IMG/VR virus record: IMGVR_UViG_3300046779_001412
Span: 72,489-136,488 of that record
Origin: a virus
Length of the DNA: 64,000 nucleotides
Strand: one strand, 5' to 3'
The position numbers and the translations under genes were made by a program. Below are positions 8,173 to 32,667 of the stretch, piece after piece. The notes under the pieces were generated by a model. That model ran no database searches. It had not been told where the DNA came from and was given only the letters and a program-made list of their open reading frames with translations. Position 1 is the first letter of the stretch, and every line of letters starts with the position of its first letter.

Positions 8173-8237
8173 ATAAAATCCTTAAATTGTTGACAACCAG
8201 TAATGGTAACATTTCCAACTACTAGTTGTCAAGTTTA

Positions 8238-9263: not shown

Positions 9264-9315
9264 GTGTAATCTCCATATTATGTGCAATGCACAATTAATA
9301 TTTAAACACATACAT

Positions 9316-9356: not shown

Positions 9357-9557
9357 TTACATACCGCGTGGAGAGTAATGTTGGATATAGATACAGCGTG
9401 CGCTGACTTTGTAGCCATCTGTGTACCAAGTGGCGCTGACACGAGCACGTTCACGCTGGCAGTCTTCGTAGTTATGTTGTGGGGCCTGTATAATACCTTT
9501 GCTCTGTGTTTGACCATAGGGCTGTGCAAGATACAAACTGATAACAAGAATCCACAT
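9357..9557 (-). CDS. small hypothetical exported protein
   Basis: MWILVISLYL..., two Cys, TAAATA just upstream. Confidence 0.5.
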   Translation of the reverse strand: MWILVISLYLAQPYGQTQSKGIIQAPQHNYEDCQRERARVSATWYTDGYKVSARCIYIQHYSPRGM

Positions 9558-9574
9558 GTTGATATTTATTAATG

Positions 9575-9597
9575 AAAAAGCCCGCCGAAGCGGGCCT
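9575..9597 (-). terminator. intrinsic terminator after tmRNA
   Basis: GCCCGC-TTCG-GCGGGC-TTTTT. Confidence 0.85.
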
Positions 9598-9599
9598 AC

Positions 9600-9890
9600 T
9601 ATTTTGGGTGACAAGGCATAGTTGCCTCGGAGATTAGGCTGCTAGAGCGAAAATCTCGTCGTTAGCTGCGTTTGCAGTTATCATTTTTCGCTGATTACGT
9701 CAGTCGACTCTCGTGTTGTCCACTCGCCTACTCTTGACCCTGTCGAAACCTTGACTGGCCCATCAGAAACATACTTCGTCCTGCAGTACGGTCCTTTTCA
9801 CAAAGAGTCGCACGGTCTGCAAATATGTTTCTGGTGGACCAGGTGGGAGTCGAACCCACGTCCAGAACCCTTTTTGGGTCGCTTCATACA
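9600..9890 (-). ncRNA. ssrA: circularly permuted (two-piece) tmRNA; tag ANAANDEIFALAA
   Basis: Acceptor piece ending GGTTCGACTCCCACCTGGTCCACCA (CCA at 9832) lies upstream of the coding piece starting GGGCCAG (9761); G3:U70 Ala determinant; tag frame 9675-9634; outer limits approximate. Confidence 0.92.
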
Positions 9891-9908
9891 ACAATACAAT
9901 TATTTATT

Positions 9909-10493
9909 TTATAGAACTTGTTGAATTTTGTCAAGTATGATATTGACCACTTGACTGCTGAGTACAACCTCGTAATGATTGAACGGCATTTCAATGATCT
10001 CAAAATCATCACGATAAAGCATACTCTGTAAAGTAACCACACCATCATTGGGTTCTTTGATCCAGGGACTTTGACCCACTGTGGTTACAATCTGAGTCCA
10101 GTTTGGCGGTGACGCAATCTTTCTACTGTCCTGCATTGGCGCACTCATGGTACCTATGTCTTTCATTAGTTTATTGAAAGGCAAAAAGTACTTGGCAAAA
10201 TCTGCTTGTTCACTGCCACCATAGGGTGTGCTTAGACTTACGCCACCTCGAGTGGTTTCGCGATAGTGATCCGCGAGAAACAAACTATAAATGCCACCAA
10301 GACTGTGACTTATAAAGAACAATCTTTCTGCATCATCTAGCCGGCCCATCATGTGCGCTAGATTATGAGCAAAGCCATTTTCGCTGCGATACTCCAGCAT
10401 GATGTCGGGTTCTTCGTAGTGATCCCGCACGAACTGACGAATGTAGCTAAAACTCTCCGCAGTGGCGCTGGCACCATGTATGTAAACAATCAT
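9909..10493 (-). CDS. alpha/beta hydrolase
   Basis: YIHG, SHSLGG nucleophile elbow, NDGVV, H near C-terminus. Confidence 0.85.
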   Translation of the reverse strand: MIVYIHGASATAESFSYIRQFVRDHYEEPDIMLEYRSENGFAHNLAHMMGRLDDAERLFFISHSLGGIYSLFLADHYRETTRGGVSLSTPYGGSEQADFAKYFLPFNKLMKDIGTMSAPMQDSRKIASPPNWTQIVTTVGQSPWIKEPNDGVVTLQSMLYRDDFEIIEMPFNHYEVVLSSQVVNIILDKIQQVL

Positions 10494-16058: not shown

Positions 16059-17141
16059 CTATTTAGTGGCCCATTGGCTAATTTTTTCTCTGGTTTGTTG
16101 ATTGATACGGTCACATCTTTTCACTAATGCACCTGATTTAATATATTCAAGGTTGTATGCACAGGCTTCTTTAGATCCTACGTAGATATCTTCAAGACTT
16201 TGTTCATTCAAAACATCTATGACCTTGAAAATCTCTGTGATACGCGATAAATCGCCCGCGTCTTGATCAAAGGTTAGGTCATAACCAAAGTTATTGTTGA
16301 AACCTAGATGTTGCAACCAGGCATGGCTGTGACGTTGTCCAATGGCCAAGATTGCTCTACCCGCTATCAAGGGCTTAAGAGTTTTCTCTGTCAGATACGG
16401 ACCTGGGTATTCAAATTCACGAGAGTTCCATATGGTACGATTATAATGCCATGTTTCATTGGTACAGTTTACAGCACAAAGATTAATACCAGGAACATCC
16501 CAGTTGCCATTGTCTATGGGTGCAAATCCTGGAGCAAATCCATCCCACTCGCGATTAATAAATTGAGCTTGTTCTAGCATACGAAAGTCAAGACTGTCCA
16601 AGGCTGGCCATCCTGCAGGATGCCCGTGATTATCTTCTGGCTTACGTACCTTAGCATGCCATGACAGCATCATGTGTTCATGCTTAAAGTTTTGCAGCAA
16701 ATATGCAGTGATAAATTTTTTGTATTGTGTGACTCTTGATGAAAGACTACTGAGCTTGAACCTAGGCGGTTGAATTTGATCAGGCGCACCAAACTTTGCA
16801 ATCAGGATATCTATTTGCTGATCCACTGTGGTATAGGTTTCGCATTCAAGATTACTCATGCCTAAACTTGCAGCATCACAAGGCCAATCTGTTATACACA
16901 ACACAGGTCTAGGATGAACACGCTGACACTGACGCACCAGCCAGTCTACGTCCATGTATTCTGTATGCCAAGAAAACAGATATCTGTCATAAGACAAAGG
17001 TACATCATGCTTTGGCCATTGCAGATTTACATCAATATAAGTGTTAGGTGGAGGTGATACACGGTAGATAAGTTGAAACACAGAAGACACTTGGTCTTCT
17101 GTGTTGTGTGAGGCAATTGCTTCGGGAAAAAAATCAGGCAC
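16059..17141 (-). CDS. hypothetical protein, glycosyltransferase-like C-terminus
   Basis: NET...YLTEKTLKPL...LQHLGF; paralog of 11854-12819. Confidence 0.55.
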   Translation of the reverse strand: MPDFFPEAIASHNTEDQVSSVFQLIYRVSPPPNTYIDVNLQWPKHDVPLSYDRYLFSWHTEYMDVDWLVRQCQRVHPRPVLCITDWPCDAASLGMSNLECETYTTVDQQIDILIAKFGAPDQIQPPRFKLSSLSSRVTQYKKFITAYLLQNFKHEHMMLSWHAKVRKPEDNHGHPAGWPALDSLDFRMLEQAQFINREWDGFAPGFAPIDNGNWDVPGINLCAVNCTNETWHYNRTIWNSREFEYPGPYLTEKTLKPLIAGRAILAIGQRHSHAWLQHLGFNNNFGYDLTFDQDAGDLSRITEIFKVIDVLNEQSLEDIYVGSKEACAYNLEYIKSGALVKRCDRINQQTREKISQWATK

Positions 17142-17758
17142 TAATCAACTCCATGGTTGCCATTTTTAAAGCCTATAGTACCACCTTCTGCCTCAATACG
17201 TTTGATAACATCTTCAAACAGTATAGGCGTGTAGTCTGTTTGCTCTACACACACGCAGTGATACCTAGTATCAACTACTTCCTCTTGAACTGTAAAAGGT
17301 CTAGGATCGTGTTCTGAAGTTTTTTCAACACTTACAGTTTTCATCACACGGTTAGCATGTAGATGTCCATGTATGTTAGTACCGAAACGACCAAGACTAG
17401 CCTCATGTATAGGAATATGGCTTAATATCATTCCGTTCATTACATGATATGCACGTAGTTCACGGAAGTATTTACGATATTCATCATCTCTAAAGATATC
17501 GTGGTTACCACGTATAAGCACCTTGTCACCGTTCAGTCTACCCAGTGTTACAAGTGCTTTGCGATTAATAACTACATCACCTAGATGATATACTTTATCG
17601 TTAGGACGAACACGTTCGTTCCAACGCTTGACCATTTCTTCATCCATTTCATTTGGATCAGTCCATGGTCTAAGTTTAGTCACACCATCGTTGCGCATGA
17701 AACGACATACGCCAGCATGACCAAAATGTGTATCACTAACTAAAAATACTGCTGGCAT
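17141..17758 (-). CDS. calcineurin-like metallophosphoesterase
   Basis: DTHFGH, HLGD, GNHD, SHIP, HGHLH. Confidence 0.92.
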   Translation of the reverse strand: MPAVFLVSDTHFGHAGVCRFMRNDGVTKLRPWTDPNEMDEEMVKRWNERVRPNDKVYHLGDVVINRKALVTLGRLNGDKVLIRGNHDIFRDDEYRKYFRELRAYHVMNGMILSHIPIHEASLGRFGTNIHGHLHANRVMKTVSVEKTSEHDPRPFTVQEEVVDTRYHCVCVEQTDYTPILFEDVIKRIEAEGGTIGFKNGNHGVD

Positions 17759-19685: not shown

Positions 19686-19763
19686 TGGTACCCCCACTCC
19701 GATTCGAACGGAGAAAACTGCTCCTTTTGAGAGAGCCGACTTTGCCAATTTGTCTATGGGGGT
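19686..19763 (-). tRNA. tRNA-Leu(CAA), short variable loop
   Basis: Cloverleaf, loop CT-CAA-AA, encoded CCA. Confidence 0.85.
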
Positions 19764-19821
19764 TTAATAATTTTTCCCACTTACTCTTATGTCTTACGTA
19801 TTATTTTCATTTTTAACTCCT

Positions 19822-19898
19822 TGGTACGGATGGAGGGATTCGAACCCTCAAAACTCGGATTTTAAATCCGATACGTATACCTGTTCCGTCACATCCGC
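19822..19898 (-). tRNA. tRNA-Leu(TAA), short variable loop
   Basis: Cloverleaf, loop TT-TAA-AA, CCA. Confidence 0.88.
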
Positions 19899-19909
19899 TA
19901 AGTAACCTT

Positions 19910-20932
19910 GTGTTAACACTGGATCAAATTCAACAAATACATGTGGAGCTTACAACTAGATGCAATGCTCGTTGTCCAATGTGTCTACGAAATTTTAGAG
20001 GATCTGATTATAATTCAGGATATCCTCTAACCGAACTAACTTTAGATCAATTCCAAAAGATCTTTACACCTAATATTATCAAGCAATTGTCACGTGGTGT
20101 AAATTTCAATGGCAATCTTGGCGACTTTGGTCTGGCTCGCGACGCATTAGAAATTACTGATTATGTTGTCACGCAGCAAGTACCTGTGCACATCAACACC
20201 AATGGTAGTATGCGATCGCCAGACTGGTGGGCACAACTAGCTCGCCCAGGTGTGAGTGTGGCCTGGGCTTTGGATGGACTTGAGGACACACATCATTTCC
20301 ATCGTCAAGACACAGATTGGCATCGAGTAATTGAACATGCTCGGGCATTTATTGCTGCTGGTGGTCGTGCAATTTGGAAGTTTATCAAATTCAAACATAA
20401 TCAACATCAAATCGCACAGTGTCGCGAGCTGGCACGTGAATTTGGATTTGCTGCGTTTGATCTTGTAAATCAAGGTAGAGATCAAAGTCCGGTGTTTTCT
20501 CGTACAGGAGAATTCAGTCATTGGATTGGTGATCCCTGGACAGAGGACGAGCCTGAAGTGCAGTCCATGTTAACCAGCATGATTCACTGGTATGATTCTA
20601 ATAGTACGTGTCATCCTCAAGACGTCGCAGATCTACAACTAAACTGCGTGCATCTTACCACACGCGAAATCTATGTTGCGGCTGATGGCACTGTGTATCC
20701 TTGTTGCTTTCTTGGATTTTATCCGCACAGCATGAAACACGCAGATAATCATCGTGTGCGTGGCTTAATATATGAAAACAATGCATTGGAACACGGGTTA
20801 GAACATGCAATGCAATGGTTTGATCGTGTGCAGCACACCTGGAAACTGCCCAATGTGGCACAGGGTAGATTGTACACCTGTGTAAATTCCTGTGCAGCAC
20901 GCTCTAATGGCGGGCGTGTGCAACCTCTTTGA
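19910..20932 (+). CDS. radical SAM protein with SPASM/twitch-like C-terminus
   Basis: CNARCPMC, INTNGS, ALDG, IYVAADGTVYPCC, terminal CVNSC. Confidence 0.9.
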   Translation: MLTLDQIQQIHVELTTRCNARCPMCLRNFRGSDYNSGYPLTELTLDQFQKIFTPNIIKQLSRGVNFNGNLGDFGLARDALEITDYVVTQQVPVHINTNGSMRSPDWWAQLARPGVSVAWALDGLEDTHHFHRQDTDWHRVIEHARAFIAAGGRAIWKFIKFKHNQHQIAQCRELAREFGFAAFDLVNQGRDQSPVFSRTGEFSHWIGDPWTEDEPEVQSMLTSMIHWYDSNSTCHPQDVADLQLNCVHLTTREIYVAADGTVYPCCFLGFYPHSMKHADNHRVRGLIYENNALEHGLEHAMQWFDRVQHTWKLPNVAQGRLYTCVNSCAARSNGGRVQPL

Positions 20933-20933
20933 A

Positions 20934-21009
20934 TGGTACCCCAGGGGAGAGTCGAACTCCCAAAATTTGGTTTCTAAGACCAACACGTATACCGTTCCGT
21001 CACCAGGGC
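20934..21009 (-). tRNA. tRNA-Leu(TAG), short variable loop
   Basis: Cloverleaf, loop CT-TAG-AA, CCA. Confidence 0.88.
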
Positions 21010-21098
21010 TTATTTAATATCTTACCAGACAGCTTAGATACTGTTCAGCCTGGCGTTGTCTATGTTCTATCATAGCAAGTAACACTTGCTGTAGCCAA

Positions 21099-21272
21099 TT
21101 ATAAATTTTTTTGCGCACTGTAGGTAAACTCTCTTTCTAGTCTTTCTATGTCTTCCGCACAGCATGGATTTTTGCTGTTGACATACCGTTCAAGGCGACT
21201 GGCATAGTCTTGACTGGGAAACATTTCAGCCAAACGATCCAATATATGTGTTATAAGTTGCGACATGGTCAT
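21099..21272 (-). CDS. small hypothetical protein (57 aa)
   Basis: Manual translation MTMSQLITHILDRLAEMF...; AAGGA RBS. Confidence 0.5.
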   Translation of the reverse strand: MTMSQLITHILDRLAEMFPSQDYASRLERYVNSKNPCCAEDIERLEREFTYSAQKNL

Positions 21273-21331
21273 TTCCTTTTTTTATATAGAATATTTATTG
21301 CAGTGCACAAAGAATTCGATATTTCAAGGAA

Positions 21332-21407
21332 TGGTGCCGACTCCTGGTTACGCTCCAGGCTCTCACGCTCTTCAGGCGTATGCTTTCACTAGATTAGCTT
21401 AGTCGGC
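21332..21407 (-). tRNA. tRNA-Phe(GAA), non-canonical T-loop
   Basis: Loop CT-GAA-GA; T-loop AGCGTAA; CCA. Confidence 0.8.
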
Positions 21408-21434
21408 AAGTGGTGGCCTGTTTCTGTGATTAAA

Positions 21435-21671
21435 CTAACGGGCCCATGTTAACACAAATATTGATCTATCTTGATCCCATTTGAATGCAACACCTAGTTG
21501 ATATGAGGATCTACTGTCATTCCATGCCCATGTCACATAGTGTTTGCCAACATGGGACTGCAGCCAGGACTCTACAAGGTCTACGCCTTGAATCCAGTCC
21601 AGCTGTGGTACGATACCAGCAGGCCACGGTACAGTGGCCGTGTACACAAAAGCATGTCTATCAACCAGCAT
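21435..21671 (-). CDS. hypothetical phage protein
   Basis: 78 aa, TAAATA upstream. Confidence 0.6.
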   Translation of the reverse strand: MLVDRHAFVYTATVPWPAGIVPQLDWIQGVDLVESWLQSHVGKHYVTWAWNDSRSSYQLGVAFKWDQDRSIFVLTWAR

Positions 21672-21683
21672 GCTCTTATTTAA

Positions 21684-21761
21684 TGGTCTCGGTGGAGAGA
21701 TTCGAACTCCCGACCCTCTGCTCCCAAAGCAGATGCGCTACCCAGGCTGCGCTACACCGAG
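21684..21761 (-). tRNA. tRNA-Pro(TGG)
   Basis: Canonical cloverleaf, CCA. Confidence 0.93.
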
Positions 21762-21842
21762 ATTATTGACGATTTATTACATACAGCAATGCCGCCATCA
21801 TTGCTATAACTATGATTGCCCCATGATTGTTCTCCGGTTGTT

Positions 21843-21918
21843 TGGTAGGGGATGAGGGACTCGAACCCCCGCATGGCGGAATCAAAATCCGCTGCCTTAC
21901 CAGCTTGGCGAATCCCCA
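21843..21918 (-). tRNA. tRNA-Gln(TTG)
   Basis: Cloverleaf, loop TT-TTG-AT, CCA. Confidence 0.92.
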
Positions 21919-21924
21919 ACAGTT

Positions 21925-22077
21925 TTAACTTGGTATGATTTTAGGAATATAAGGTACATTCCTGGGACCATGACGTTGCTCAAATAACTGTTTTGCTTCT
22001 TGTAGATCTTTCGCATACACACGATCTTTGACTTCTCCTTGAGTAGTCTTGACTGTGGTTTCATACATTGGCATAAC
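21925..22077 (-). CDS. small hypothetical protein between tRNAs
   Basis: MPMYETTVKT..., AAGGAG RBS. Confidence 0.55.
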   Translation of the reverse strand, partial: VMPMYETTVKTTQGEVKDRVYAKDLQEAKQLFEQRHGPRNVPYIPKIIPS

Positions 22078-22092
22078 ATCTCCTTGGTTACA

Positions 22093-22167
22093 TGGCCCGA
22101 CCGGCAGGAATCGAACCCACATTCTGGAGGTAGAAGCTCCATGTCCTATCCATTGAACGACGGTCGG
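22093..22167 (-). tRNA. tRNA-Arg(TCT)
   Basis: Cloverleaf, loop CT-TCT-AC, CCA. Confidence 0.9.
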
Positions 22168-22173
22168 TAATAC

Positions 22174-22249
22174 TGGAGCGGGAGGCGAGATTCGAACTCG
22201 TCTATTTCAGTTTGGAAGACTGACGTGTAACCGTAAACACTTCACCCGC
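22174..22249 (-). tRNA. tRNA-Gly(TCC)
   Basis: Cloverleaf, loop CT-TCC-AA, U73 and CCA. Confidence 0.9.
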
Positions 22250-22255
22250 TTAGAT

Positions 22256-22723
22256 CTATAATGCTCCATTGGCTATTCTATCTGCGGCGTAACTTGCAGC
22301 AAACGCCCGAGGTTTAACCAGGGGAATCACGTTGCAAGTACCTCGAATATAACCAATGGCCTGACTTATCACGCAACTGCTACCATGCTCTTCATTGGGG
22401 TTGATATCCAGATGTACTTCAACTGGAAAGTCCCCCATTACCGGTGCAAGACGTTGAAACATTTCGCTCACACGATAAACTTCATTCATCAACCTCATGG
22501 CCGGCTTGTTTAATTTGTGATCATAATCACGTTCTCTAGTTATTTCACCAAAAATTTTACAGCCGTTGTTGCCATTGATGTGAATTACCACAGCTACAGT
22601 GTATTCAGCATACCATATGCCTTTTTCACGATAACGAATGCTGTCTGCACCTAGATAGACTTTTGTACCAGTGCCACAGGCATCTACAAATTGTTTGATT
22701 TGGTCTACATTGATACGTGGCAC
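22256..22723 (-). CDS. RNase H-like YkuK-family protein
   Basis: VYLGADS, RLMNEV, EVHLDIN, ASYAADR. Confidence 0.75.
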   Translation of the reverse strand: MPRINVDQIKQFVDACGTGTKVYLGADSIRYREKGIWYAEYTVAVVIHINGNNGCKIFGEITRERDYDHKLNKPAMRLMNEVYRVSEMFQRLAPVMGDFPVEVHLDINPNEEHGSSCVISQAIGYIRGTCNVIPLVKPRAFAASYAADRIANGAL

Positions 22724-22739
22724 ATTAACTCCTTTAAGT

Positions 22740-22814
22740 TGGCCGGTCCGGAGAGATTCGAACTCCCGACAGCTGGTTTCGAAGACCAGAACTCTTCCGC
22801 TGAGCTACGGACCG
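22740..22814 (-). tRNA. tRNA-Arg(TCG)
   Basis: Cloverleaf, loop CT-TCG-AA, CCA. Confidence 0.88.
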
Positions 22815-22820
22815 ATTGTA

Positions 22821-22892
22821 TGGCGGGCCTTTGCAGGAATTGAACCTACTACTCTATCCTTTGGAGGGATACGAGATCGCCAGAGTAGACCC
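22821..22892 (-). tRNA. tRNA-Trp(CCA)-like RNA with no recognisable D-stem
   Basis: Good anticodon arm (TATCC-CTCCAAA-GGATA), T-arm and GCCA end; D region 14 nt, unpaired. Confidence 0.55.
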
Positions 22893-22900
22893 ATAAAACT

Positions 22901-22988
22901 TGGCGGAGAGTATAGGATTCGAACCTATGCGCCACTTTCGCAACGACAGTTTAGCAAACTGCTGCCTTAACCACTCGGCCAACTCTCC
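22901..22988 (-). tRNA. tRNA-Ser(GCT)
   Basis: Long variable arm, G73, CCA. Confidence 0.93.
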
Positions 22989-23032
22989 ATGTTACATTAT
23001 ACCTAGATTGGTATTTTATGTCAAAGGTTATT

Positions 23033-23106
23033 TGGTGCCCCTTGACAGAATCGAACTGCCAATCCCGGATTACAAAACCGGTGTTATGCCATTTAACTAA
23101 AGGGGC
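23033..23106 (-). tRNA. tRNA-Thr(TGT)
   Basis: Cloverleaf, loop TT-TGT-AA, CCA. Confidence 0.88.
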
Positions 23107-23244
23107 TCTTGGTCCTCTTGATCTGGTATATGTGGTACACGTTGTGCCAACCACATCCAATACCAGATCAATGGGATACAACATATAAAAAATAAAAATG
23201 GGCGCATTCTTTTAGTTAGTATGCACTGTTATTTTGGAAATATT

Positions 23245-23334
23245 TGGCGGAAGCGGTGAGATTCGAACTCACGGTACCTTTCGATACGTCTGTTTTCAAG
23301 ACAGGTGCAATCAACCGGACTCTGCCACACTTCC
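23245..23334 (-). tRNA. tRNA-Ser(TGA)
   Basis: Long variable arm, loop CT-TGA-AA, CCA. Confidence 0.92.
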
Positions 23335-23339
23335 ATCAC

Positions 23340-23413
23340 TGGTGCTCCCAACTGGTAACGATCCAGTGTCGCTACATTACCAATGTAGTGTAATGCCTTT
23401 ATACTATAGGAGC
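23340..23413 (-). tRNA. tRNA-Thr(GGT), T-loop ATCGTTA
   Basis: Loop TT-GGT-AA, CCA. Confidence 0.85.
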
Positions 23414-23414
23414 T

Positions 23415-23492
23415 TGGTAGCGATGGAGGGATTCGAGCCCCCGATCTTCCGCGTATGAAGCGGCTGCATTGAACCAACTATGCTACATCGCT
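23415..23492 (-). tRNA. tRNA-Met/Ile2(CAT)
   Basis: Loop TT-CAT-AC, CCA; Met versus lysidine-Ile not resolvable. Confidence 0.82.
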
Positions 23493-23498
23493 GTTGTA

Positions 23499-23572
23499 TG
23501 GTAGTCAGTACTGGTAACGATCCAGTGTCTCACGGTTATCAGCCGTGTGCTCTGCCCTTGAGCTAACCGACT
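23499..23572 (-). tRNA. tRNA-Ile(GAT), T-loop ATCGTTA
   Basis: Loop CT-GAT-AA, CCA. Confidence 0.85.
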
Positions 23573-23574
23573 AT

Positions 23575-23648
23575 TGGCTCCGGTGGAGGGAATCGAACCC
23601 CCACTAACGGTTTTGGAGACCGCCGCGCTGCCATTACACCACACCGGA
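23575..23648 (-). tRNA. tRNA-Trp(CCA)
   Basis: Canonical cloverleaf, CCA. Confidence 0.9.
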
Positions 23649-23656
23649 ATAACTTT

Positions 23657-23734
23657 TGGAGCATCGGGCTGGATTTGAACCAGCGAATCGAGAGTTTTGC
23701 AGACTCCGCCATTGGGCCGCTCTGGTACCGATGC
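23657..23734 (-). tRNA. tRNA-Cys(GCA)
   Basis: Loop CT-GCA-AA, U73 and CCA. Confidence 0.88.
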
Positions 23735-23737
23735 ATA

Positions 23738-24028
23738 TTAATCTTCTTCGTCAAACTCACCTGAGTTATGACAATAGCCTTTCAATGTACCTATAACCAA
23801 GTCTTGGTCGGATACCACAAACACATTGTATTCTGCACGACGAAACGGATTCATTCTAGGTATGTCTCTACGTGCGTCAGTGTCAAATGGCAAAGGTTCA
23901 ACTTTGACATTACCTGAATGCTCGTATGTCTCTGCTACACGCCCTATGATAATTCTGTTGTTATGGCAGGTTAATACAGTGGAACCTGTTTTAATTGTTG
24001 TTCCTAAAATATCTTTTAAGCCTGTCAC
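23738..24028 (-). CDS. hypothetical protein
   Basis: GTG start after GGAGG; the longer ORF-track version overlaps tRNA-His. Confidence 0.6.
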   Translation of the reverse strand: MTGLKDILGTTIKTGSTVLTCHNNRIIIGRVAETYEHSGNVKVEPLPFDTDARRDIPRMNPFRRAEYNVFVVSDQDLVIGTLKGYCHNSGEFDEED

Positions 24029-24056
24029 AAACCCTCCATTAAAGTTTTGGCTACGT

Positions 24057-24130
24057 TGGGGTGAAGTGGGGAATCGAACCCTCTCTGACTGTTTCACAGA
24101 CAGCCGTGCAGCCATTACACTAACAACACC
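24057..24130 (-). tRNA. tRNA-His(GTG)
   Basis: G-1:C73, loop CT-GTG-AA, CCA. Confidence 0.88.
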
Positions 24131-24131
24131 A

Positions 24132-24386
24132 TTAAGTTTTGTCAAGTGGAATTTCTTCCACTGGATCAGTCATAATTGATTCTACTACAAACACATCAAA
24201 CACAGCGTCATCTTCGGGATGACAAATTTCTTCTAGGAATTTGTGTCCAAATTTGGTACGCCAGTGAATAAAACGTTGCTTGTGGCTATCCCACCGTGCC
24301 ACACTGGCATTACGACAACTGCCATTATAGTACAAACCGTGTTCAAGGTCAACCTTGGCAATTTTGGGTGTATAATCTGTTAACAC
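24132..24386 (-). CDS. hypothetical phage protein
   Basis: 84 aa, AGGAG RBS. Confidence 0.65.
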   Translation of the reverse strand: MLTDYTPKIAKVDLEHGLYYNGSCRNASVARWDSHKQRFIHWRTKFGHKFLEEICHPEDDAVFDVFVVESIMTDPVEEIPLDKT

Positions 24387-24403
24387 TGCTAACTCCTAAT
24401 AGT

Positions 24404-24478
24404 TGGTGGACCGACGGGGAGTCAAACCCCGACTTCTCGGGTGCAAACCGAGTGTGCTCTCGCTATCACTATCAGCCC
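24404..24478 (-). tRNA. tRNA-Ala(TGC)
   Basis: G3:U70, loop TT-TGC-AC, CCA. Confidence 0.88.
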
Positions 24479-24484
24479 TGATAT

Positions 24485-24563
24485 TGGCTCCGCATTAGAG
24501 AATCGAACTCTACTAGCCAGTGATTAACAGTCACGCCCATGCACCTTGCTCGGGTTCTGCGGA
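24485..24563 (-). tRNA. tRNA-Asn(GTT)
   Basis: Loop CT-GTT-AA, G73, CCA. Confidence 0.85.
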
Positions 24564-24570
24564 ATTGGTT

Positions 24571-24663
24571 TGGTGGGTGTCCACGGATTTGAACCGCGAA
24601 TGTTTACCACGAGGGACCGATTTTACAGACCGGTGTAGCACACGCCATAGCTACAAGACACCC
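24571..24663 (-). tRNA. tRNA-Tyr(GTA)
   Basis: Long variable arm, loop CT-GTA-AA, CCA. Confidence 0.85.
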
Positions 24664-24666
24664 AAT

Positions 24667-24918
24667 TTAATTTTGATTTAGATCTTTGGCATCCACACAG
24701 GTGCCACCTTTGAAAACGTAGATATCGCTGTCTACGCGAATTTGTTCAAACACATGATTGTTCACACACACGTAAGGATCTTTGTGATTTTGCACAGCAT
24801 AGTACACGCCAAATCCTATGCCTGCCAGCAACATTATCACAGGCAGGTATTTCAAATACTTGACTATTTCGGGCAGCGCACTGAGAATCTGCGGAAGATT
24901 TTTAAGCAATTCCTTCAT
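24667..24918 (-). CDS. small membrane protein
   Basis: One TM helix, TAAATA upstream. Confidence 0.65.
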   Translation of the reverse strand: MKELLKNLPQILSALPEIVKYLKYLPVIMLLAGIGFGVYYAVQNHKDPYVCVNNHVFEQIRVDSDIYVFKGGTCVDAKDLNQN

Positions 24919-24947
24919 GACTGTATTTACGTCAGTGCCTGCTGATC

Positions 24948-25022
24948 TGGCGGTCCCAAGGGGTAACGATCCCCTTCTTTCAGCGTGACAGGCTGATGTG
25001 CGTCCATGAACACTTTAGAACC
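24948..25022 (-). tRNA. tRNA-Asp(GTC), T-loop ATCGTTA
   Basis: Loop CT-GTC-AC, G73, CCA. Confidence 0.85.
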
Positions 25023-25028
25023 AGATTT

Positions 25029-25178
25029 TATAGGTAAGCGCCGAGAGAATGTCAATTTAGACGTCCTGCGCTAACAGTGTCAAAGCCGAGACCAGTTATA
25101 TTAGGACTCGTCCCCGGCCGGGAGAGCCCGAATAGTGTGTGCGTCCACACACGATACCTGTATCGACGCTTAACTATA
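25029..25178 (-). ncRNA. candidate structured ncRNA in tRNA array
   Basis: Closing stem TATAGTTAAGCGTCGA/TCGGCGCTTACCTATA plus internal hairpins; no credible ORF. Confidence 0.5.
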
Positions 25179-25187
25179 AAATCTAAT

Positions 25188-25415
25188 AAATGCTCTGCGA
25201 CCCCTGGCGGTAATTATACCGTATTGCTACGGCCTCCACCCGCTCCACAACAGGGTCCGTTCTCGCATTGCCAGCGCACTTTCGGTTTAAAGTGTACCAC
25301 CCGTGCTTGTCAAGGCACTTCTCATCCTCCGGGTCAGAGTATCCAGTGACGCTGGAACGTTCTTTATGGTAGTTGGTCGCTACGCCAACTTTTGCTTTCA
25401 CAAGGATACCTTTAC
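25188..25415 (-). ncRNA. candidate structured ncRNA in tRNA array
   Basis: ATACTCTGACCC/GGGTCGCAGAGCAT closing stem and several GC-rich hairpins. Confidence 0.5.
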
Positions 25416-25483
25416 AGGTTTCGCATTATAGGTTATTTCAGCGCACAGCGAATTTCTTCACTAAACCCAAACCTTGCTACATT

Positions 25484-25548
25484 ACCATATTGAAACACAC
25501 TATGCCACGCTCTGAACCTGGACTCTTAGTAATGTGTTTTAATATGGT
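25484..25548. repeat. conserved-stem, variable-loop hairpin element, copy 1
   Basis: ACCATATTGAAACACACT...AATGTGTTTTAATATGGT; abuts tRNA-Glu CCA. Confidence 0.8.
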
Positions 25549-25619
25549 ACACGGTAGGGGAATCGAACCCCTCTTCCATCCGTGAAAGGGATGTGTCCTA
25601 ACCGATAGACGAACCGTGC
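25545..25619 (-). tRNA. tRNA-Glu(TTC)
   Basis: Loop CT-TTC-AC, CCA. Confidence 0.9.
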
Positions 25620-25624
25620 ATAAA

Positions 25625-25986
25625 ATCTTGAAGGTTCCTATAAAGCCCATCGTCACCTACAACCATTGGGTAGTTTCCTACCATCTGATCTAATGCTAAC
25701 AAGGAACTGACTGTTACATGATGCTGAAGTCATATTACTGCATCAAACCCTTGCTGAACCCTTGCGGGACGATTCGCACTTGATCGTTTTACTCAAAATA
25801 TTGAATCAGCTACTTGTTTTCCATGCAAGCCCTGAAACCGAGTTGTTACCCTGTCCATCCCTTTTATTCTGTGTCTGTGTGCAGAGGGATACTGCCTATC
25901 AGAGTCTGGGTTACCCCGCTAACGGTTTTCTGCCACCGGATCTCTATCGCTAATCAAACGCTACTTTCAGGAAAGTAGTAACCGGA
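25625..25986 (-). ncRNA. candidate structured ncRNA(s) in tRNA array
   Basis: 360 nt with hairpins CTACTTTC/GAAAGTAG, GGTAG-GAAA-CTACC, CCC-GCAA-GGG, GATGC/GCATC; no credible ORF. Confidence 0.5.
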
Positions 25987-25988
25987 AC

Positions 25989-26065
25989 TGGTTGCGGGAA
26001 ACAGGAATCGAACCTGATGTCTTTGGCTTATGAGACCAACGAGTAAACCGTTTCTCCCTCCCGCC
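25989..26065 (-). tRNA. tRNA-Met(CAT), initiator-like
   Basis: 1:72 mismatch, loop CT-CAT-AA, AACCA end; lacks the three G-C anticodon pairs. Confidence 0.8.
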
Positions 26066-26112
26066 GCTGTATTGTATTTTGTCTATTATAACAAAAAGAA
26101 TTTTATTGGTCA

Positions 26113-26188
26113 ACCATATAGAAACACACTATCCTAGATAACCTCTTTGGGACGGACTTTAACCGTTCGAAATGTGTTTTTATATGGT
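26113..26188. repeat. conserved-stem, variable-loop hairpin element, copy 2
   Basis: ACCATATAGAAACACACT...AATGTGTTTTTATATGGT; abuts tRNA-Lys CCA. Confidence 0.8.
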
Positions 26189-26261
26189 AGGTGCGGTGAG
26201 ACTTGAACTCACAACTTATCGGTTAAAAGCCGATTACTCTAGCCAGTTGAGTTACGCACCC
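26185..26261 (-). tRNA. tRNA-Lys(TTT)
   Basis: Canonical cloverleaf, CCA. Confidence 0.92.
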
Positions 26262-26293
26262 TTCATCTTGCCACTATCCATAACAGGATCTCC

Positions 26294-26518
26294 TTATTTG
26301 TTTTTTTGAAAGTACTCTTCAGCCAGTGCATCTTCTGCTAGTTCTCTAGCACGACGCTGTTCTTGCGTTTCTTCTGTTTCTAATTGTTCATTCATTTGTT
26401 TAATGTTTGACACAATATGTTCTTTGCTGCTTACTTCACCACGTAACTTAGCCAATTCTCGTTCGTATCTGGCCACAAGACCTGGTGTTACGTGTTTTTT
26501 TATCCATTCTGTAGTCAT
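26294..26518 (-). CDS. small coiled-coil protein
   Basis: 74 aa, AGGAG RBS. Confidence 0.65.
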   Translation of the reverse strand: MTTEWIKKHVTPGLVARYERELAKLRGEVSSKEHIVSNIKQMNEQLETEETQEQRRARELAEDALAEEYFQKNK

Positions 26519-26555
26519 AATTAATCTCCTGCTAGATGGGATTCTTGGATTCTAA

Positions 26556-26627
26556 ACCATATTGAAACACACTACTCTCTTTGTGGTCGCCGCCGCGGAA
26601 CGGCATCGCAATGTGTTTCAATATGGT
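26556..26627. repeat. conserved-stem, variable-loop hairpin element, copy 3
   Basis: Perfect 16-bp inverted repeat ACCATATTGAAACACA/TGTGTTTCAATATGGT, just downstream of a sigma70-like promoter. Confidence 0.8.
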
Positions 26628-26801
26628 CCCAATATTGATATTGTAAGACAATCACAAATATTGGTCAACCATATGTTGGGATCAACACCCCAACCAGGAG
26701 TCTTACCATCTGCGTTGCCGCCACAGATTTCATGTGTCCTGTCCGCCCGTTTGTGATTTTTAATGAATCACTGGTCCTCGTTACCTTAAACATCTTGACA
26801 A

Positions 26802-31800: not shown

Positions 31801-32667
31801 TTACGTTCCCCATGCATTACGCCATATATCTACTTGCAGTCTTGGACTATATCTCCATCCTCGATCCAATGCAAGCTTTGCCACTTGTTGTGTGTTGAGA
31901 TTATACACCTGTGGAACTCCTCCCACAGGCATTAGATACACCGGACAGTTGATGTTGTGTTTGCGATATTCAGCAACAGCACGTTCAGCATCAGCAACAT
32001 CTTCGTCTGTGGCCACTACAAATTTCAAATACACTTGTCCATACAGCTGATATTGATGAACCACTTCGGGTTGTATAGCACGTTCAAACGGCTCACCTGA
32101 ACATGGCAACTTGGGACTCACACTAAAGGTCAAGTGATCAAAGTCTCGTCCATATCTTGTGAATTCTTGAAACAGATATTCTTCTACTTCAGGATAGAGT
32201 TTTTGAGTACCATTGGTTTCAAAAGTAATATGCTGAAGTCCATTGGCACGACAGCGATCAATCAGTTCCGGATAAAGTTGTTGATACGCCAGCAGTGGTT
32301 CACCACCAGTGATAATCAAATGAGACTGATTCCAAACTTTGCCCGGCAGCAAGTCATGTATTTGGCCTGCAATAGTTTCCACATTTTCTTGTTGATTGAA
32401 ACGCTTGAACTCAGGATAGATTGATGCATAGGTATCGCACCCTGTGGTAACCAGTGGCAGATCTTCAAACTTTTGATATTGATCTAGATTTTTTAAGATT
32501 TCAACTACTTCAGGATTGTGACCTTCGATGAGTTCGTCACGTGGTCTTCCAAACTTGCGACATCTAAAGTTGCAACCGTATGTACGAAAGAAAATGCTGG
32601 GCACACCAGCATACATTCCTTCTCCTTGCAGACTGTAAAAAATTTCAGTATAGGTTATCTTTTCCAT
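31801..32667 (-). CDS. queE: 7-carboxy-7-deazaguanine synthase (radical SAM)
   Basis: EIFYSLQGEG, GCNFRC...CDT, ITGGEPLL, ETNGT, SVSPKL. Confidence 0.88.
   Translation of the reverse strand: MEKITYTEIFYSLQGEGMYAGVPSIFFRTYGCNFRCRKFGRPRDELIEGHNPEVVEILKNLDQYQKFEDLPLVTTGCDTYASIYPEFKRFNQQENVETIAGQIHDLLPGKVWNQSHLIITGGEPLLAYQQLYPELIDRCRANGLQHITFETNGTQKLYPEVEEYLFQEFTRYGRDFDHLTFSVSPKLPCSGEPFERAIQPEVVHQYQLYGQVYLKFVVATDEDVADAERAVAEYRKHNINCPVYLMPVGGVPQVYNLNTQQVAKLALDRGWRYSPRLQVDIWRNAWGT

What the first reader, a model, noticed from the sequence alone, without database searches (positions are those of the whole stretch)
25484..26627. Family of conserved-stem, variable-loop RNA cassettes attached to tRNA 3' ends and the tmRNA spacer
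Seen: three dispersed elements (25484-25548, 26113-26188, 26556-26627) share ACCATATWGAAACACACT-[about 29-40 unrelated nt]-AATGTGTTTYWATATGGT. Two begin exactly at the encoded CCA of tRNA-Glu and tRNA-Lys; the third follows its own sigma70-like promoter. The intervening segment of the permuted tmRNA (9760-9837: CCATCAGAAACATACT...AATATGTTTCTGGTGG) has the same architecture. Inference: constant handles around variable cargo suggest processed small RNAs (guides, antisense RNAs or decoys) released during tRNA maturation, or RNase III-type processing stems. ATTGAAAC...GTTTCAAT also resembles the ends of type I-B/III CRISPR repeats, so a crRNA mimic (RNA anti-CRISPR) is possible but speculative. 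The copy-3 loop (CACAAAGAG) is complementary to the tmRNA-spacer loop (CTCTTTGTG).
Basis: partly seen in the sequence, partly recalled or inferred. Interest (0 to 1): 0.75.

Follow-up and report, generated by a model that had tools for sequence, protein, structure and literature searches.

The report
Clamp-hairpin RNA cassettes between phage tRNAs
A long RNA hairpin with a near-constant 18-base-pair stem and interchangeable tips fills the gaps after tRNA genes, and the gap inside a split tmRNA gene, in many uncultured lake phages; it is probably cut out during tRNA maturation, and what the released small RNAs do is unknown.

Summary
The window holds three canonical copies (25484-25548, 26113-26188, 26556-26627) and one diverged copy in the permuted tmRNA's intervening segment (9762-9835).

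All are read on the minus strand, the strand of the 23 tRNAs. The stem is ACCAUAUWRAAACACAUU / AGUGUGUUUCWAUAUGGU.

The same stem encloses unrelated inserts ("cargo", 5-211 nt) in 184 elements across 120 IMG/VR phage contigs plus the window. Covariation and a strand-specific excess of G.U pairs show selection on an RNA helix.

- 103 of 182 oriented elements start exactly on the ACCA end of a tRNA.
- In 37 of 182 the next tRNA's first bases lie inside the 3' arm.

Individual cargo types are conserved. Copy 1's 22-nt cargo core occurs exactly in 52 contigs, always inside such a hairpin, behind different tRNAs or inside tmRNA genes. Related phages carry different cargos at the same position.

The element is almost absent from 185,579 bacterial species genomes (one hit). 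I found no significant match in Rfam 15 or GenBank phages, and no description in the papers I searched.

Most likely it is a spacer cassette removed by tRNA-processing enzymes, giving stem-capped small RNAs. That mechanism is inferred, because no RNA data exist. The crRNA-mimic idea and the loop-loop pairing are not supported. Earlier notes of this scan describe the same family on other DNA.

The parts
25484..25548 (-). Clamp-hairpin copy 1. 5' arm 25531-25548 (begins with the ACCA of tRNA-Glu), 29-nt cargo 25502-25530, 3' arm 25484-25501.
   Evidence: CM R1 60.6 bits on the - strand against 48.1 on the + strand. The cargo's 22-nt core occurs exactly in 52 IMG/VR contigs.
26113..26188 (-). Clamp-hairpin copy 2. 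It begins with the ACCA of tRNA-Lys(UUU) and has a 40-nt cargo. Its 3' arm abuts the promoter-like site TTGACC-17-TATAAT (26113-26085).
   Evidence: R1 61.7 bits. The cargo was found in only 2 other contigs.
26556..26627 (-). Clamp-hairpin copy 3, with a 36-nt cargo. It lies 12 nt after a promoter-like site and upstream of a 74-aa ORF.
   Evidence: R1 58.9 bits. The cargo type occurs in 15 contigs with a C-G to U-A compensatory change.
9762..9835 (-). Diverged clamp hairpin that forms the intervening segment of the permuted (two-piece) tmRNA gene. It lies between the CCA of the acceptor piece and G1 of the coding piece.
   Evidence: R1 25.3 bits, E 1.3e-4. tmRNA segments of other phages carry the copy-1 and copy-3 cargo types.
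9543..9924 (-). Permuted tmRNA gene, tag peptide ANAANDEIFALAA.
   Evidence: ARAGORN. Rfam beta_tmRNA 135.5 bits and tmRNA_permuted 125.6 bits.
25545..25619 (-). tRNA-Glu(UUC). Its 3' ACCA is the start of copy 1.
26185..26261 (-). tRNA-Lys(UUU). Its 3' ACCA is the start of copy 2.
25993..26064 (-). tRNA-Met(CAU), 48 nt downstream of copy 2 and behind the promoter-like site.
26640..26668 (-). Promoter-like site TTGACC-17-TACAAT in front of copy 3.
   Evidence: Consensus match only.
26294..26518 (-). 74-aa ORF between copy 3 and tRNA-Lys. No family match. Probably on the same transcript as the elements.
   Evidence: A homologue was found in only 1 of 120 loci.
19686..26261 (-). tRNA array of 23 ARAGORN-called tRNAs, all on the minus strand, that hosts the three canonical copies.

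Best explanation
The element is an RNA-level spacer cassette of polycistronic tRNA and tmRNA precursors in lake phages, those checked being T4-like.

Anatomy. An 18-19-bp "clamp" helix has a 5' strand that begins with the NCCA end of the preceding stable RNA. Its 3' strand ends at, or up to 3 nt inside, the next tRNA. The helix encloses an exchangeable apical cargo RNA.

Inferred mechanism.
1. RNase P cuts at +1 of the downstream tRNA or of the tmRNA coding piece. Where that tRNA starts inside UGGU, the cut removes the partner of the upstream ACCA.
2. An endonuclease cuts at or just after ACCA. Candidates are RNase E, RNase Z/BN, or RNase III acting on the helix. Short exonucleolytic trimming then frees the upstream tRNA.
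3. A stem-capped small RNA is left over. Its helix protects it from exonucleases, and its tip (the cargo) is the functional part in at least some types.

The conserved arms also serve as shared homology. Through them, cassettes are swapped between positions and between phages.

Shown: the anatomy, selection on the RNA helix, the exact junctions, conservation of single cargo types, cargo swapping, and restriction to phages.

Inferred: every cleavage step, accumulation of the excised RNA, and any cargo function.
For: (1) RNA helix.
- 94.8% of cells are paired, 8 of 19 pairs change on both sides, and 0 of 500 shuffles reach the observed values, in 60 elements with unrelated cargos.
- 92.7% are paired and 12 of 19 pairs change on both sides in 41 elements sampled by cargo, not by arms.

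(2) Strand.
- The U17.G2 asymmetry agrees with the tRNA strand in 128 of 128 elements where both are defined.
- From one search's pair table I count 209 G.U cells against 18 A.C cells in positions 1-18, leaving out position 9. The other strand would show the reverse.
- Model R1 scores the tRNA strand 7-13 bits higher than the opposite strand.

(3) Junctions.
- 103 of 182 elements share exactly 4 nt (ACCA) with an upstream tRNA. Only 3 have an upstream tRNA at another offset within 15 nt.
- The downstream tRNA starts 3 nt (33 elements) or 2 nt (4 elements) inside the 3' arm, or 2-8 nt after it (32 elements).
- 159 of 182 elements begin with NCCA.

(4) Same module in the tmRNA intervening segment, which tRNA-processing enzymes are known to remove (PMC11915505, passages read). 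Evidence: and 9 loci plus the window.

(5) Cargo conservation.
- The copy-1 cargo core is exact in 52 contigs at 53 sites, all inside a hairpin, while the arms vary.
- In the arm-selected sample, 4 of 4 clustered copies plus 2 with degenerate arms (L016, L077) have the identical 29-nt cargo. Arms of L085 and L124 differ at 6 of 36 positions (my count).
- The copy-3 cargo type shows a C-G to U-A change.
- A 37-nt cargo type shows a CCG/CGG to CGG/CCG swap and tetraloop swaps.

(6) Swapping.
- Positions with the same flanks hold different cargos, two elements, or a tRNA.
- The window and L024 have nearly identical tmRNA genes with different cargos.
- L133 carries the copy-1 cargo at the window's copy-3 position.

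(7) Confined to tRNA arrays. There are 1-3 elements in each of 9 large records, nearly all within a few kb of each other (one weaker match, 30.2 bits, lies elsewhere in G009). The own record has only the four copies.

(8) Phage-specific. The two-arm pattern hits 1 stretch among the genomes of 185,579 species.
Against: - There is no expression or end-mapping data. No RNA run holds the locus, so excision and accumulation are unproven.
- On average the cargos are no more structured than random segments of the same loci (mean z -0.44 against -0.33). They share no k-mer above shuffle level.
- The shortest cargos are 5 and 9 nt, so a cargo is not needed for the element to exist.
- No above-chance complementarity of the four window cargos to the rest of the 136-kb record, so no target is known.
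- No candidate partner protein is universal. RNase III: 0 of 8 records. TROVE: 0 of 8. YkuK-like: 5 of 7 complete records. Metallophosphoesterase: 5 of 7 complete records.
- The strong sequence conservation of the arms is not explained by what is generally known of RNase III or RNase P, which read shape more than sequence. This is my recollection, not a call.
- Part of the arm conservation follows from how the first sample was drawn, because one arm had to match the pattern exactly.
Confidence: 0.5

Rival explanations
1. It is purely a cis-acting processing, insulating or stabilising hairpin. The helix is the whole function: a dsRNA cleavage site, a folding insulator between neighbouring tRNAs, or a 5'/3' protective cap. 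The cargo is tolerated filler that drifts and is swapped.
For: - Minimal elements have loops of only 5 and 9 nt.
- The cargos have no common motif or excess structure.
- Junctions with tRNA ends are exact.
- The same module forms the tmRNA intervening segment, which is discarded.
- Copy 3 sits at the 5' end of a predicted transcript, where a stem could protect it.
Against: - Single cargo types are more conserved than the arms and carry compensatory changes.
- T-loop motifs occur in 19 of 170 cargos on the sense strand and 0 of 170 on the antisense strand, in cloverleaf-like folds.
- Most tRNA junctions in the same arrays are only 1-9 nt long and have no hairpin, so a hairpin is not generally needed for processing.
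Confidence: 0.2
2. It is primarily a DNA-level mobile or recombination cassette. Possibilities are a MITE-like element with 18-bp terminal inverted repeats, or a PeSL-like shuffling motif, perhaps driven by the homing endonucleases that sit in these arrays.
For: - Terminal inverted repeats surround unrelated interiors.
- The same cargo follows different tRNAs, and different cargos occupy the same position.
- Zinc-finger and HNH endonuclease-like ORFs recur in 20 and 15 of 121 sources.
- Two window copies abut promoter-like sites, as PeSLs do (PMC4122927, abstract and introduction read).
Against: - The strand-specific G.U excess and the fixed orientation with the tRNAs point to selection on RNA.
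- No empty site and no target-site duplication were found among 208 flank matches.
- The window/L010 indel is bounded by ACCA ends and also carries another ACCA-ended block.
- There are only 1-3 copies per large record in the 9 searched (4 in the window's record), nearly all inside the tRNA array.
- No transposase was identified.
Confidence: 0.12
3. It is a scaffold that binds one sequence-specific RNA-binding protein and tethers it to the cargo, in the manner of Y RNAs with Ro60/Rsr. Some cargos would mimic tRNA.
For: - A long conserved stem combines with a variable module.
- A subset of cargos has D-like and T-arms in cloverleaf-like folds.
- The arm sequence is far more conserved than helix stability alone needs.
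Against: - No TROVE/Ro60 gene in 0 of 8 records, 7 of them complete.
- The consensus 5' arm has no GNCGAA-type motif (motif from PMC4201824, passages read; arm).
- The T-arm comes last, as in tRNA, not first as in YrlA.
- No Rfam match reaches a gathering score; the best over an element is mir-653, 20.3 bits, E 0.68.
Confidence: 0.08
4. It is a crRNA or CRISPR-repeat mimic, that is, an RNA anti-CRISPR.
For: Some 5' arms contain AUUGAAAC, which I recall as the 8-nt 5' handle of many type I and type III crRNAs. That is recalled, not tested.
Against: - AUUGAAAC occurs in 21 of 170 arms, AUAAAAAC in 71 and AUUGAAGC in 28. The octamer lies on the most variable stem positions.
- The arms are inverted repeats, not direct repeats.
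- Placement is tied to tRNA ends.
- Cargos match nothing outside other elements in 1.2 Mb of related phage DNA.
Confidence: 0.03

Closest known systems
Intervening segment of circularly permuted two-piece tmRNA genes (Rfam RF01850 beta_tmRNA, RF04321 tmRNA_permuted)
   Same: One window copy is such a segment. It runs from the CCA of the acceptor piece to G1 of the coding piece and extends the acceptor helix. The segment is removed by tRNA-processing enzymes (PMC11915505, passages read). In other phages these segments carry the same cargo types as the tRNA spacers.
   Different: Most elements lie between ordinary tRNAs or after a promoter, not in tmRNA. The conserved arm sequence and the exchangeable cargo are not part of the Rfam tmRNA models. 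I did not examine bacterial tmRNA segments.
RNase III processing stalks (helices flanking 16S and 23S rRNA; phage T7 early sites) - recalled
   Same: A long helix, formed by sequences on both sides of an RNA, lies within a polycistronic stable-RNA transcript. The stem is 18-19 bp and more than 92% paired.
   Different: Cleavage is untested. No RNase III gene was found in 0 of 8 phage records. The stem sequence is nearly invariant across phages, whereas, as I recall, such stalks are conserved in shape. Here the helix starts exactly on a tRNA's CCA.
Phage T4 stable RNAs rnaC and rnaD (species 1 and 2) in the T4 tRNA cluster
   Same: They are non-tRNA small RNAs embedded in the tRNA cluster of a T4-type phage (annotation of NC_000866.4). 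The predicted fold of rnaC has a T-arm next to its closing stem, like the T-arm cargos here. Complete carrier records encode a T4-type Gp23 capsid protein, 4 of 4.
   Different: The T4 cluster has no clamp arms. The best R1 score there is 8.1 bits, E 0.67. T4 has two fixed RNAs, not a swappable set.
HDV-like theta ribozymes behind gut-phage tRNAs (PMC10879173)
   Same: They are phage cis elements placed directly after tRNA genes and are proposed to process the 3' trailer (passages read).
   Different: Theta ribozymes have a conserved catalytic core, and only 4.5% of their tRNAs encode CCA. Here the conserved part is a plain helix, CCA is encoded, the cargo varies, and no ribozyme family matched in Rfam.
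Regulatory RNAs cut from tRNA transcript spacers in E. coli (3'ETS-leuZ sponge) - recalled; only search listings seen
   Same: A by-product of tRNA maturation acts as an RNA in its own right.
   Different: There is no conserved clamp stem and no cassette exchange. Targets are known there and unknown here.
PeSL promoter-stem-loop cassettes of T4-type phages (PMC4122927, PMC2839356)
   Same: A conserved short regulatory motif in T4-type phages serves as a point of exchange between unrelated sequences (abstract and introduction of PMC4122927 read). Two window copies abut promoter-like sites.
   Different: PeSLs are terminator/promoter motifs that flank ORFs in hyperplastic regions. Here an inverted repeat encloses non-coding cargo, is tied to tRNA ends, and shows RNA-strand selection. 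Few elements have a promoter next to them.

Membership tests
Permuted tmRNA intervening segment | Lies between the CCA of the acceptor piece and the 5' end of the coding piece of a permuted tmRNA gene | tested here: met
   Met for 9762-9835 only. The other three copies are not in a tmRNA gene.
RNase III processing stalk | Helix of about 20 bp or more formed by flanks of an RNA in a precursor | tested here: met
   18-19 bp; 94.8% and 92.7% of cells paired; covariation above all 500 shuffles.
RNase III processing stalk | Cleavage by RNase III with 2-nt 3' overhangs | not testable with these tools
   No RNA data. No phage RNase III in 0 of 8 records.
Bacterial Y RNA / YrlA | Encoded near, or together with, a Ro60/Rsr (TROVE) gene | tested here: not met
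   PF05731 found in 0 of 8 phage records, 7 of them complete. Host genomes unknown.
Bacterial Y RNA / YrlA | GNCGAA(N)G-type Rsr-binding motif near the 5' end (PMC4201824) | tested here: not met
   The consensus 5' arm ACCAUAUWRAAACACAUU has no such motif. No Rfam match reaches a gathering score; the best over an element is mir-653, 20.3 bits, E 0.68.
CRISPR repeat / crRNA mimic (RNA anti-CRISPR) | Conserved repeat-derived handle identical to a CRISPR repeat end | tested here: not met
   AUUGAAAC occurs in 21 of 170 unique 5' arms and sits on the most variable stem positions. No comparison with real CRISPR repeats was possible.
CRISPR repeat / crRNA mimic (RNA anti-CRISPR) | Direct repeats flanking a spacer that matches a target | tested here: not met
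   The arms are inverted. Cargos match only other elements or T-arms in 1.2 Mb of related DNA, and nothing above chance in the own record.
MITE / TIR transposon | Terminal inverted repeats | tested here: met
   18-nt arms.
MITE / TIR transposon | Target-site duplication, and empty sites in relatives | tested here: not met
   Among 208 flank matches, the 10 that differed in length by more than 10 nt (those inspected) held another element, two elements, a tRNA, or in one case 327 nt of unclassified sequence; none was an empty site. The window/L010 indel is bounded by ACCA ends.
Self-cleaving ribozyme behind tRNA (theta/HDV-like) | Conserved catalytic core | tested here: not met
   Only a fully paired helix is conserved. 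The cargos share no motif. No ribozyme family matched in Rfam.
PeSL (promoter-early stem-loop) | Composite terminator/promoter motif flanking ORFs | tested here: inconclusive
   Promoter-like sites lie next to copies 2 and 3. Only 5 of 78 elements not preceded by a tRNA have a -10-like hexamer 4-14 nt upstream. The cargo is non-coding.

The most novel reading that the evidence does not exclude
The clamp stem is a sequence-specific loading handle. These phages carry a recombination-shuffled set of small RNAs, an "RNA cassette system". All are released from tRNA and tmRNA precursors and all are presented to one still-unknown host or phage protein through the same helix, with its conserved U.G pair and frequent A.C mismatch.

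The cargos would be effectors, for example tRNA-like decoys or sponges aimed at host tRNA-targeting defences. This would fit two observations: elements follow tRNA-Lys/Glu/Gln in 72 of 103 tRNA-preceded cases, and some cargos have T-arms. Shared gene order among related phages could also produce that bias.
Probability: 0.2. Interest if true: 0.85.

Novelty: new variant of a known kind. Interest (0 to 1): 0.62.

Why it matters
Large phages carry big tRNA arrays, and how these are matured is poorly known. What else the arrays encode is also unclear. T4's two stable RNAs in its tRNA cluster have, as far as I recall, had no assigned function since the 1970s.

This element is a widespread and sharply defined RNA module. 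It ties tRNA 3'-end formation, tmRNA maturation and a set of conserved small RNAs together.

- If the excised RNAs are stable, they are a new family of phage small RNAs with a ready-made scaffold.
- If they are not, the clamp is a new kind of processing signal with unusually strict sequence requirements, which implies an unknown reader.

Either way the questions are directly testable, with one transcript and a few purified RNases. The arms also give a simple search key for finding more cargos.

Tried and rejected
- RNA evidence. The look-up of sequencing runs listed 20 DNA holders in 9 studies (freshwater and lake metagenomes) and no RNA holder. There is therefore no expression evidence either way.

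- Read laying on four DNA runs at 85% likeness. It gave many joints whose ends fall in the arms, for example 25541 to 26182 and 25502 to 26554. It also gave one form with 5 letters between 26130 and 26171. These are contigs of metagenomes at low likeness with short sides, so they most likely come from related phages that share the arms. I draw no conclusion on mobility from them.

I used six-frame ORFs, Pfam, PHROGs and NCBIfam scans and tblastn instead.

- rRNA mimic or antisense idea for the copy-1 cargo. Against one actinobacterial 23S region (L189) there were only matches of 10 nt or less at E 0.29 or more. Rejected for that sequence. The true host's rRNA was not available.

- Antisense targets in the own record. 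The longest perfect complements were 10-12 nt, no longer than for shuffled cargos, which gave means of 10.6-11.3 and maxima of 13-14.

- Protospacer-like matches of cargos in 1.2 Mb of related loci. Only other copies of the same cargo or tRNA T-arms were found.

- Shared cargo motif: none above shuffle level. Excess cargo structure: none on average.

- YkuK-like RNase H-fold protein as an obligate partner. It is present in 30 of 121 sources and 8 of 14 large records, but absent from 2 of 7 complete ones. The fold search gave only generic RNase H-superfamily matches at E 1.6e-3 or more. It remains a candidate, not a finding.

- Literature. Searches found no description of this hairpin family. 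Supplements were closed and were not seen. The supplementary tables of PMC4201824 and PMC10879173 could list phage RNAs that I could not check.

- GenBank phages. The region gave only tRNA matches. Copy 1 alone gave one 23-nt hit at E 6.
Full report
**What is there.** The window is the 3' 64 kb of a 136,488-bp IMG/VR virus record that CheckV rates as 39% complete. Positions 19686-26261 hold 23 tRNA genes, all on the minus strand. A circularly permuted tmRNA gene lies at 9543-9924 (-).

Read on the minus strand, the three elements are:
- copy 1 (25548 to 25484): ACCAUAUUAAAACACAUU - 29 nt - AGUGUGUUUCAAUAUGGU
- copy 2 (26188 to 26113): ACCAUAUAAAAACACAUU - 40 nt - AGUGUGUUUCUAUAUGGU
- copy 3 (26627 to 26556): ACCAUAUUGAAACACAUU - 36 nt - AGUGUGUUUCAAUAUGGU

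The arm motif occurs 6 times against 1.44 expected, and 0 of 100 shuffles reach 6.

The ACCA of copies 1 and 2 is the 3' end of tRNA-Glu and tRNA-Lys. Copy 3 starts 12 nt after a promoter-like TTGACC-17-TACAAT. Copy 2's 3' arm runs straight into a second promoter-like site, TTGACC-17-TATAAT.

The tmRNA intervening segment reads CCACCAGAAACAUAUU - 46 nt - AGUAUGUUUCUGAUGG|G. It continues the acceptor helix of the tRNA-like domain.

**How widespread it is.** In those loci plus the window, a relaxed two-arm search found 184 elements, 172 of them unique.

Cargo length runs from 5 to 211 nt, with a median of 51.5.

A two-arm pattern scanned over one genome for each of 185,579 bacterial and archaeal species hit a single 1.5-kb MAG contig. 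Rfam 15 has no family for it. At gathering thresholds only tRNAs and tmRNA match. At E up to 10 the elements touch only a microRNA model at 16-20 bits. GenBank phage records (50,697) give only tRNA matches for the region and one chance-level 23-nt hit for copy 1.

Four of four complete carrier records that I tested encode a T4-type Gp23 capsid protein. Genome sizes of complete carriers are 160-364 kb. The DNA occurs in freshwater and lake metagenomes of 9 studies.

**It is an RNA helix, on the tRNA strand.** In an alignment of 60 elements with unrelated cargos, 94.8% of cells in the 19 proposed pairs are standard pairs. Eight pairs show changes on both sides. None of 500 column shuffles reaches the observed values, and sliding the partner by 1-3 columns drops pairing to 29-57%.

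That first sample was drawn by arm sequence. I therefore drew a second sample by cargo, taking 41 distinct elements that share copy 1's cargo. There, 12 of 19 pairs change on both sides, 92.7% of cells are paired, and 0 of 500 shuffles reach the covariation score. Examples of covarying arms are CACUAUUCUAAAACACAUU / AGUGUGUUUCAGAAUAG and CCACCAUAAAGUAUAUU / AGUAUACUUUAUAAUGG.

The helix is asymmetric. Position 17 is U.G in 120 of 170 unique elements, C-G in 30 and U-A in 18. It is never C.A on the tRNA strand. Orientation inferred from this asymmetry agrees with the strand of the neighbouring tRNAs in 128 of 128 cases.

Adding up one search's table for positions 1-18 without position 9 gives 209 G.U cells and 18 A.C cells. 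On the opposite strand these numbers would be exchanged.

The covariance model R1 scores the tRNA strand at 61.7, 60.6, 58.9 and 25.3 bits. It scores the other strand at 48.2, 48.1, 49.1 and 18.7 bits.

Position 9 is peculiar: A.C in 71 elements, G-C in 62 and A-U in 18. I have no explanation for this mismatch.

**Junctions are exact.** Of 182 oriented elements, 103 share exactly four bases (ACCA) with an upstream ARAGORN tRNA. Only three have an upstream tRNA at another offset within 15 nt. The upstream tRNA is Lys in 49, Glu in 13, Gln in 10, Leu in 8, Ile in 7 and Thr in 6. Shared gene order among relatives may inflate the Lys count.

Downstream, a tRNA begins 3 nt (33 elements) or 2 nt (4 elements) inside the 3' arm, so that UAUAU|GGU holds the tRNA's G1. 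In 32 elements it begins 2-8 nt after the arm.

159 of 182 elements begin with NCCA. Of the 78 elements with no called tRNA upstream and full flanks:
- 14 have a T-arm-like hairpin just upstream;
- 2 follow another element;
- 5 follow a -10-like hexamer;
- 57 follow other sequence, some of it recurrent between contigs.

In the own record R1 finds only the four copies. In nine large records it finds 1-3 elements each, nearly all within a few kb of one another (one weaker match in G009 lies elsewhere). Most other tRNA-tRNA junctions in these arrays are 1-9 nt long.

**The cargo.** Taken together, the cargos share no k-mer above shuffle level. They are no more structured than random segments of the same loci, with mean z -0.44 against -0.33.

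Individual cargo types, however, are conserved.
- Copy 1. The 22-nt core occurs exactly in 52 IMG/VR contigs at 53 sites, every time inside a hairpin of this kind. It follows different tRNAs, follows non-tRNA sequence, sits at the promoter-proximal position that copy 3 holds in the window (L133), or lies in the intervening segment of permuted tmRNA genes: 5 loci by pattern, and 2 more by eye. In the arm-selected sample the full 29-nt cargo is identical in the 4 of 4 copies clustered and in 2 more with degenerate arms (L016, L077), while the arms of L085 and L124 differ at 6 of 36 positions (my count).
- Copy 3. This cargo type occurs in 15 contigs, again including a tmRNA segment (L181, L182). 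It has a C-G to U-A double change in its GC-rich hairpin.
- A 37-nt type. It occurs in four different contexts. It swaps CCG...CGG for CGG...CCG and exchanges the loop tetranucleotides CUUG, AACA and UUCG, and AAAA, GAAA and UUCG, in two small hairpins.
- T-loop motifs. A GTTCRANYC motif occurs in 19 of 170 cargos on the sense strand and in none on the antisense strand. It usually lies next to the 3' arm, and several of these cargos fold into cloverleaf-like shapes closed by the clamp.
- Copy 2. Its cargo was found in only two other contigs.

**Cassettes are exchanged.**
- Positions with the same 18-nt flanks on both sides hold different cargos (L109 and L033, L117 and L034), one element or two (L029 and L072), or a whole tRNA gene instead of an element (L026 and L063).
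- The window and its close relative L024 have almost identical tmRNA genes. Their intervening cargos are unrelated (46 and 69 nt), and the inner arm pair differs in a compensatory way, U-A against C-G.
- After tRNA-Glu, L010 lacks copy 1 together with a following block of about 130 nt that itself ends in ACCA. Both ends of that indel fall at ACCA.
- I found no clean empty site and no target-site duplication.

**How it most likely works.** The steps below are inferred. The tmRNA copy gives the best lead. Its two ends are the mature CCA end and the mature 5' end of the two tmRNA pieces, and such segments are removed by tRNA-processing enzymes (PMC11915505, passages read). The spacer copies have the same geometry.

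I therefore propose three steps.
1. RNase P cuts at the downstream +1. Where that lies inside UGGU, the cut unpairs the upstream ACCA.
2. An endonuclease cuts at or just after ACCA, followed by short trimming. From my own knowledge, RNase E, RNase Z/BN and RNase III are the candidates in Gram-negative hosts.
3. The remaining helix of 14-18 bp shields the excised RNA from 3' exonucleases.

The conservation of single cargo types suggests that at least some excised RNAs are used. The conserved arms supply the homology for exchange.

What this does not explain is why the arm sequence, and not only the helix, is so constant. That points to a sequence-specific reader. None of my candidate genes is universal:
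- RNase III: 0 of 8 records;
- TROVE/Ro60: 0 of 8;
- YkuK-like RNase H-fold protein (PF04308, window 22256-22723): 8 of 14 large records and 5 of 7 complete ones;
- metallophosphoesterase (17141-17758): 5 of 7 complete records.

**Rivals.**
- A pure processing or insulating hairpin with filler cargo fits the 5- and 9-nt loops. It does not fit the cargo conservation.
- A DNA-level mobile element fits the swapping and the endonuclease-like ORFs in the arrays. It does not fit the RNA-strand asymmetry, the low copy number or the lack of empty sites.
- A Y-RNA-like tether fails the tested defining features.
- The crRNA-mimic idea fails because AUUGAAAC is present in only 21 of 170 arms and the repeats are inverted.
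- The copy-3/tmRNA loop complementarity is nominally unusual (22 of 2000 shuffles). It is absent in L024, and the 9-mer varies within the cargo type.

**Comparison with the known.** The nearest things are listed here.
- The tmRNA intervening segment. One copy is a member.
- RNase III stalks. The architecture is similar, but cleavage is untested.
- T4's rnaC and rnaD. These are non-tRNA RNAs in a T4-type tRNA cluster. The predicted fold of rnaC has a T-arm beside its closing stem, but model R1 does not hit the T4 cluster.
- Theta ribozymes behind gut-phage tRNAs.
- Spacer-derived regulatory RNAs of E. coli tRNA operons. This is recalled; I saw only search listings.
- PeSL cassettes.

None combines a sequence-constant clamp on the CCA end with a swappable set of conserved cargos.

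My literature searches found no description. Supplements were closed. Earlier notes of this same scan describe the same family on other genomes as clamp-hairpin or clamp-stem cassettes. My analysis was done independently and agrees with them.

**Verdict.** This is a real, widespread, phage-restricted RNA element for which I found no published description. The anatomy and the selection on it are well supported. The processing route and any function of the excised RNAs are inferred, and no expression data exist. I rate it a new variant of a known kind (spacer or processing helices and spacer-derived RNAs), with interest 0.62.

Noticed in passing
window 24479-24570 (-): The Tyr-to-Ala spacer folds as a cloverleaf with anticodon loop CUGUUAA (GUU, Asn-like). 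ARAGORN does not call it. The relative L010 has a called tRNA-Asn(gtt) at the same position.
   Followed up: partly
window 22815-22900 (-): The Ser(gct)-to-Arg(tcg) spacer folds into a tRNA-like shape with a GGUUCAAUUCC T-arm closed by a stem. No tool calls it as a tRNA.
   Followed up: no
window 23113-23176: A different long hairpin, with 17-nt arms that extend to about 25 bp, lies in the Ser(tga)-to-Thr(tgt) spacer. Its sequence is unrelated to the clamp arms.
   Followed up: no
window about 25850-25870 (-), inside the 373-nt Met-to-Glu spacer: The motif GGACAGGGUAACAACUC recurs, with nearby sequence, just upstream of clamp elements in L097, L126 and L017. It may belong to another conserved non-coding RNA of these arrays. 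Rfam finds nothing there.
   Followed up: no
window 25353-25483 (-): A block of about 130 nt after copy 1 is absent from L010. It starts with GGU, overlapping the clamp end as a tRNA would, and ends in ACCA, but it is not a tRNA. Earlier scan notes mention similar ACCA-ended non-tRNA segments.
   Followed up: partly
window 22256-22723 (-): A 155-aa YkuK-like RNase H-fold protein (PF04308, 2.1e-14; phrog_11311) lies inside the tRNA array. Homologues occur in 30 of 121 element-bearing sources. The AlphaFold model has pLDDT 86.5. Foldseek gives only generic RNase H-superfamily matches (EndoV, NurA, RNase HI, PIWI) at E 1.6e-3 or more. The family has no known function (PMC3985635, passages read).
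   Followed up: partly
window 17141-17758 (-), and related loci: A metallophosphoesterase (phrog_547) recurs in 30 of 121 sources, often inside the array. A Cys-phosphatase-like ORF (14 sources), an RpoZ-like 79-aa ORF (15), dCMP deaminase (17), and Zn-finger and HNH endonuclease-like ORFs (20 and 15) also recur.
   Followed up: partly
window 2836-9311 (-): A run of host-like metabolic genes: S-adenosylhomocysteine hydrolase, GroEL-type chaperonin, phosphate-selective porin O/P and a PstS-like phosphate-binding protein. The porin suggests a Gram-negative host.
   Followed up: no
window 13170-14714, 19910-20932, 31801-32667: Three radical-SAM-domain ORFs lie near or inside the tRNA array. Two pass Pfam's cut-off and one is weak. 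They might be RNA- or tRNA-modifying enzymes.
   Followed up: no
stem position 9 of the elements (for example window 25540/25492): An A.C mismatch in the middle of the helix is the commonest state, in 71 of 170 elements, ahead of G-C (62) and A-U (18). It is linked to A-U at position 8. Unexplained.
   Followed up: partly
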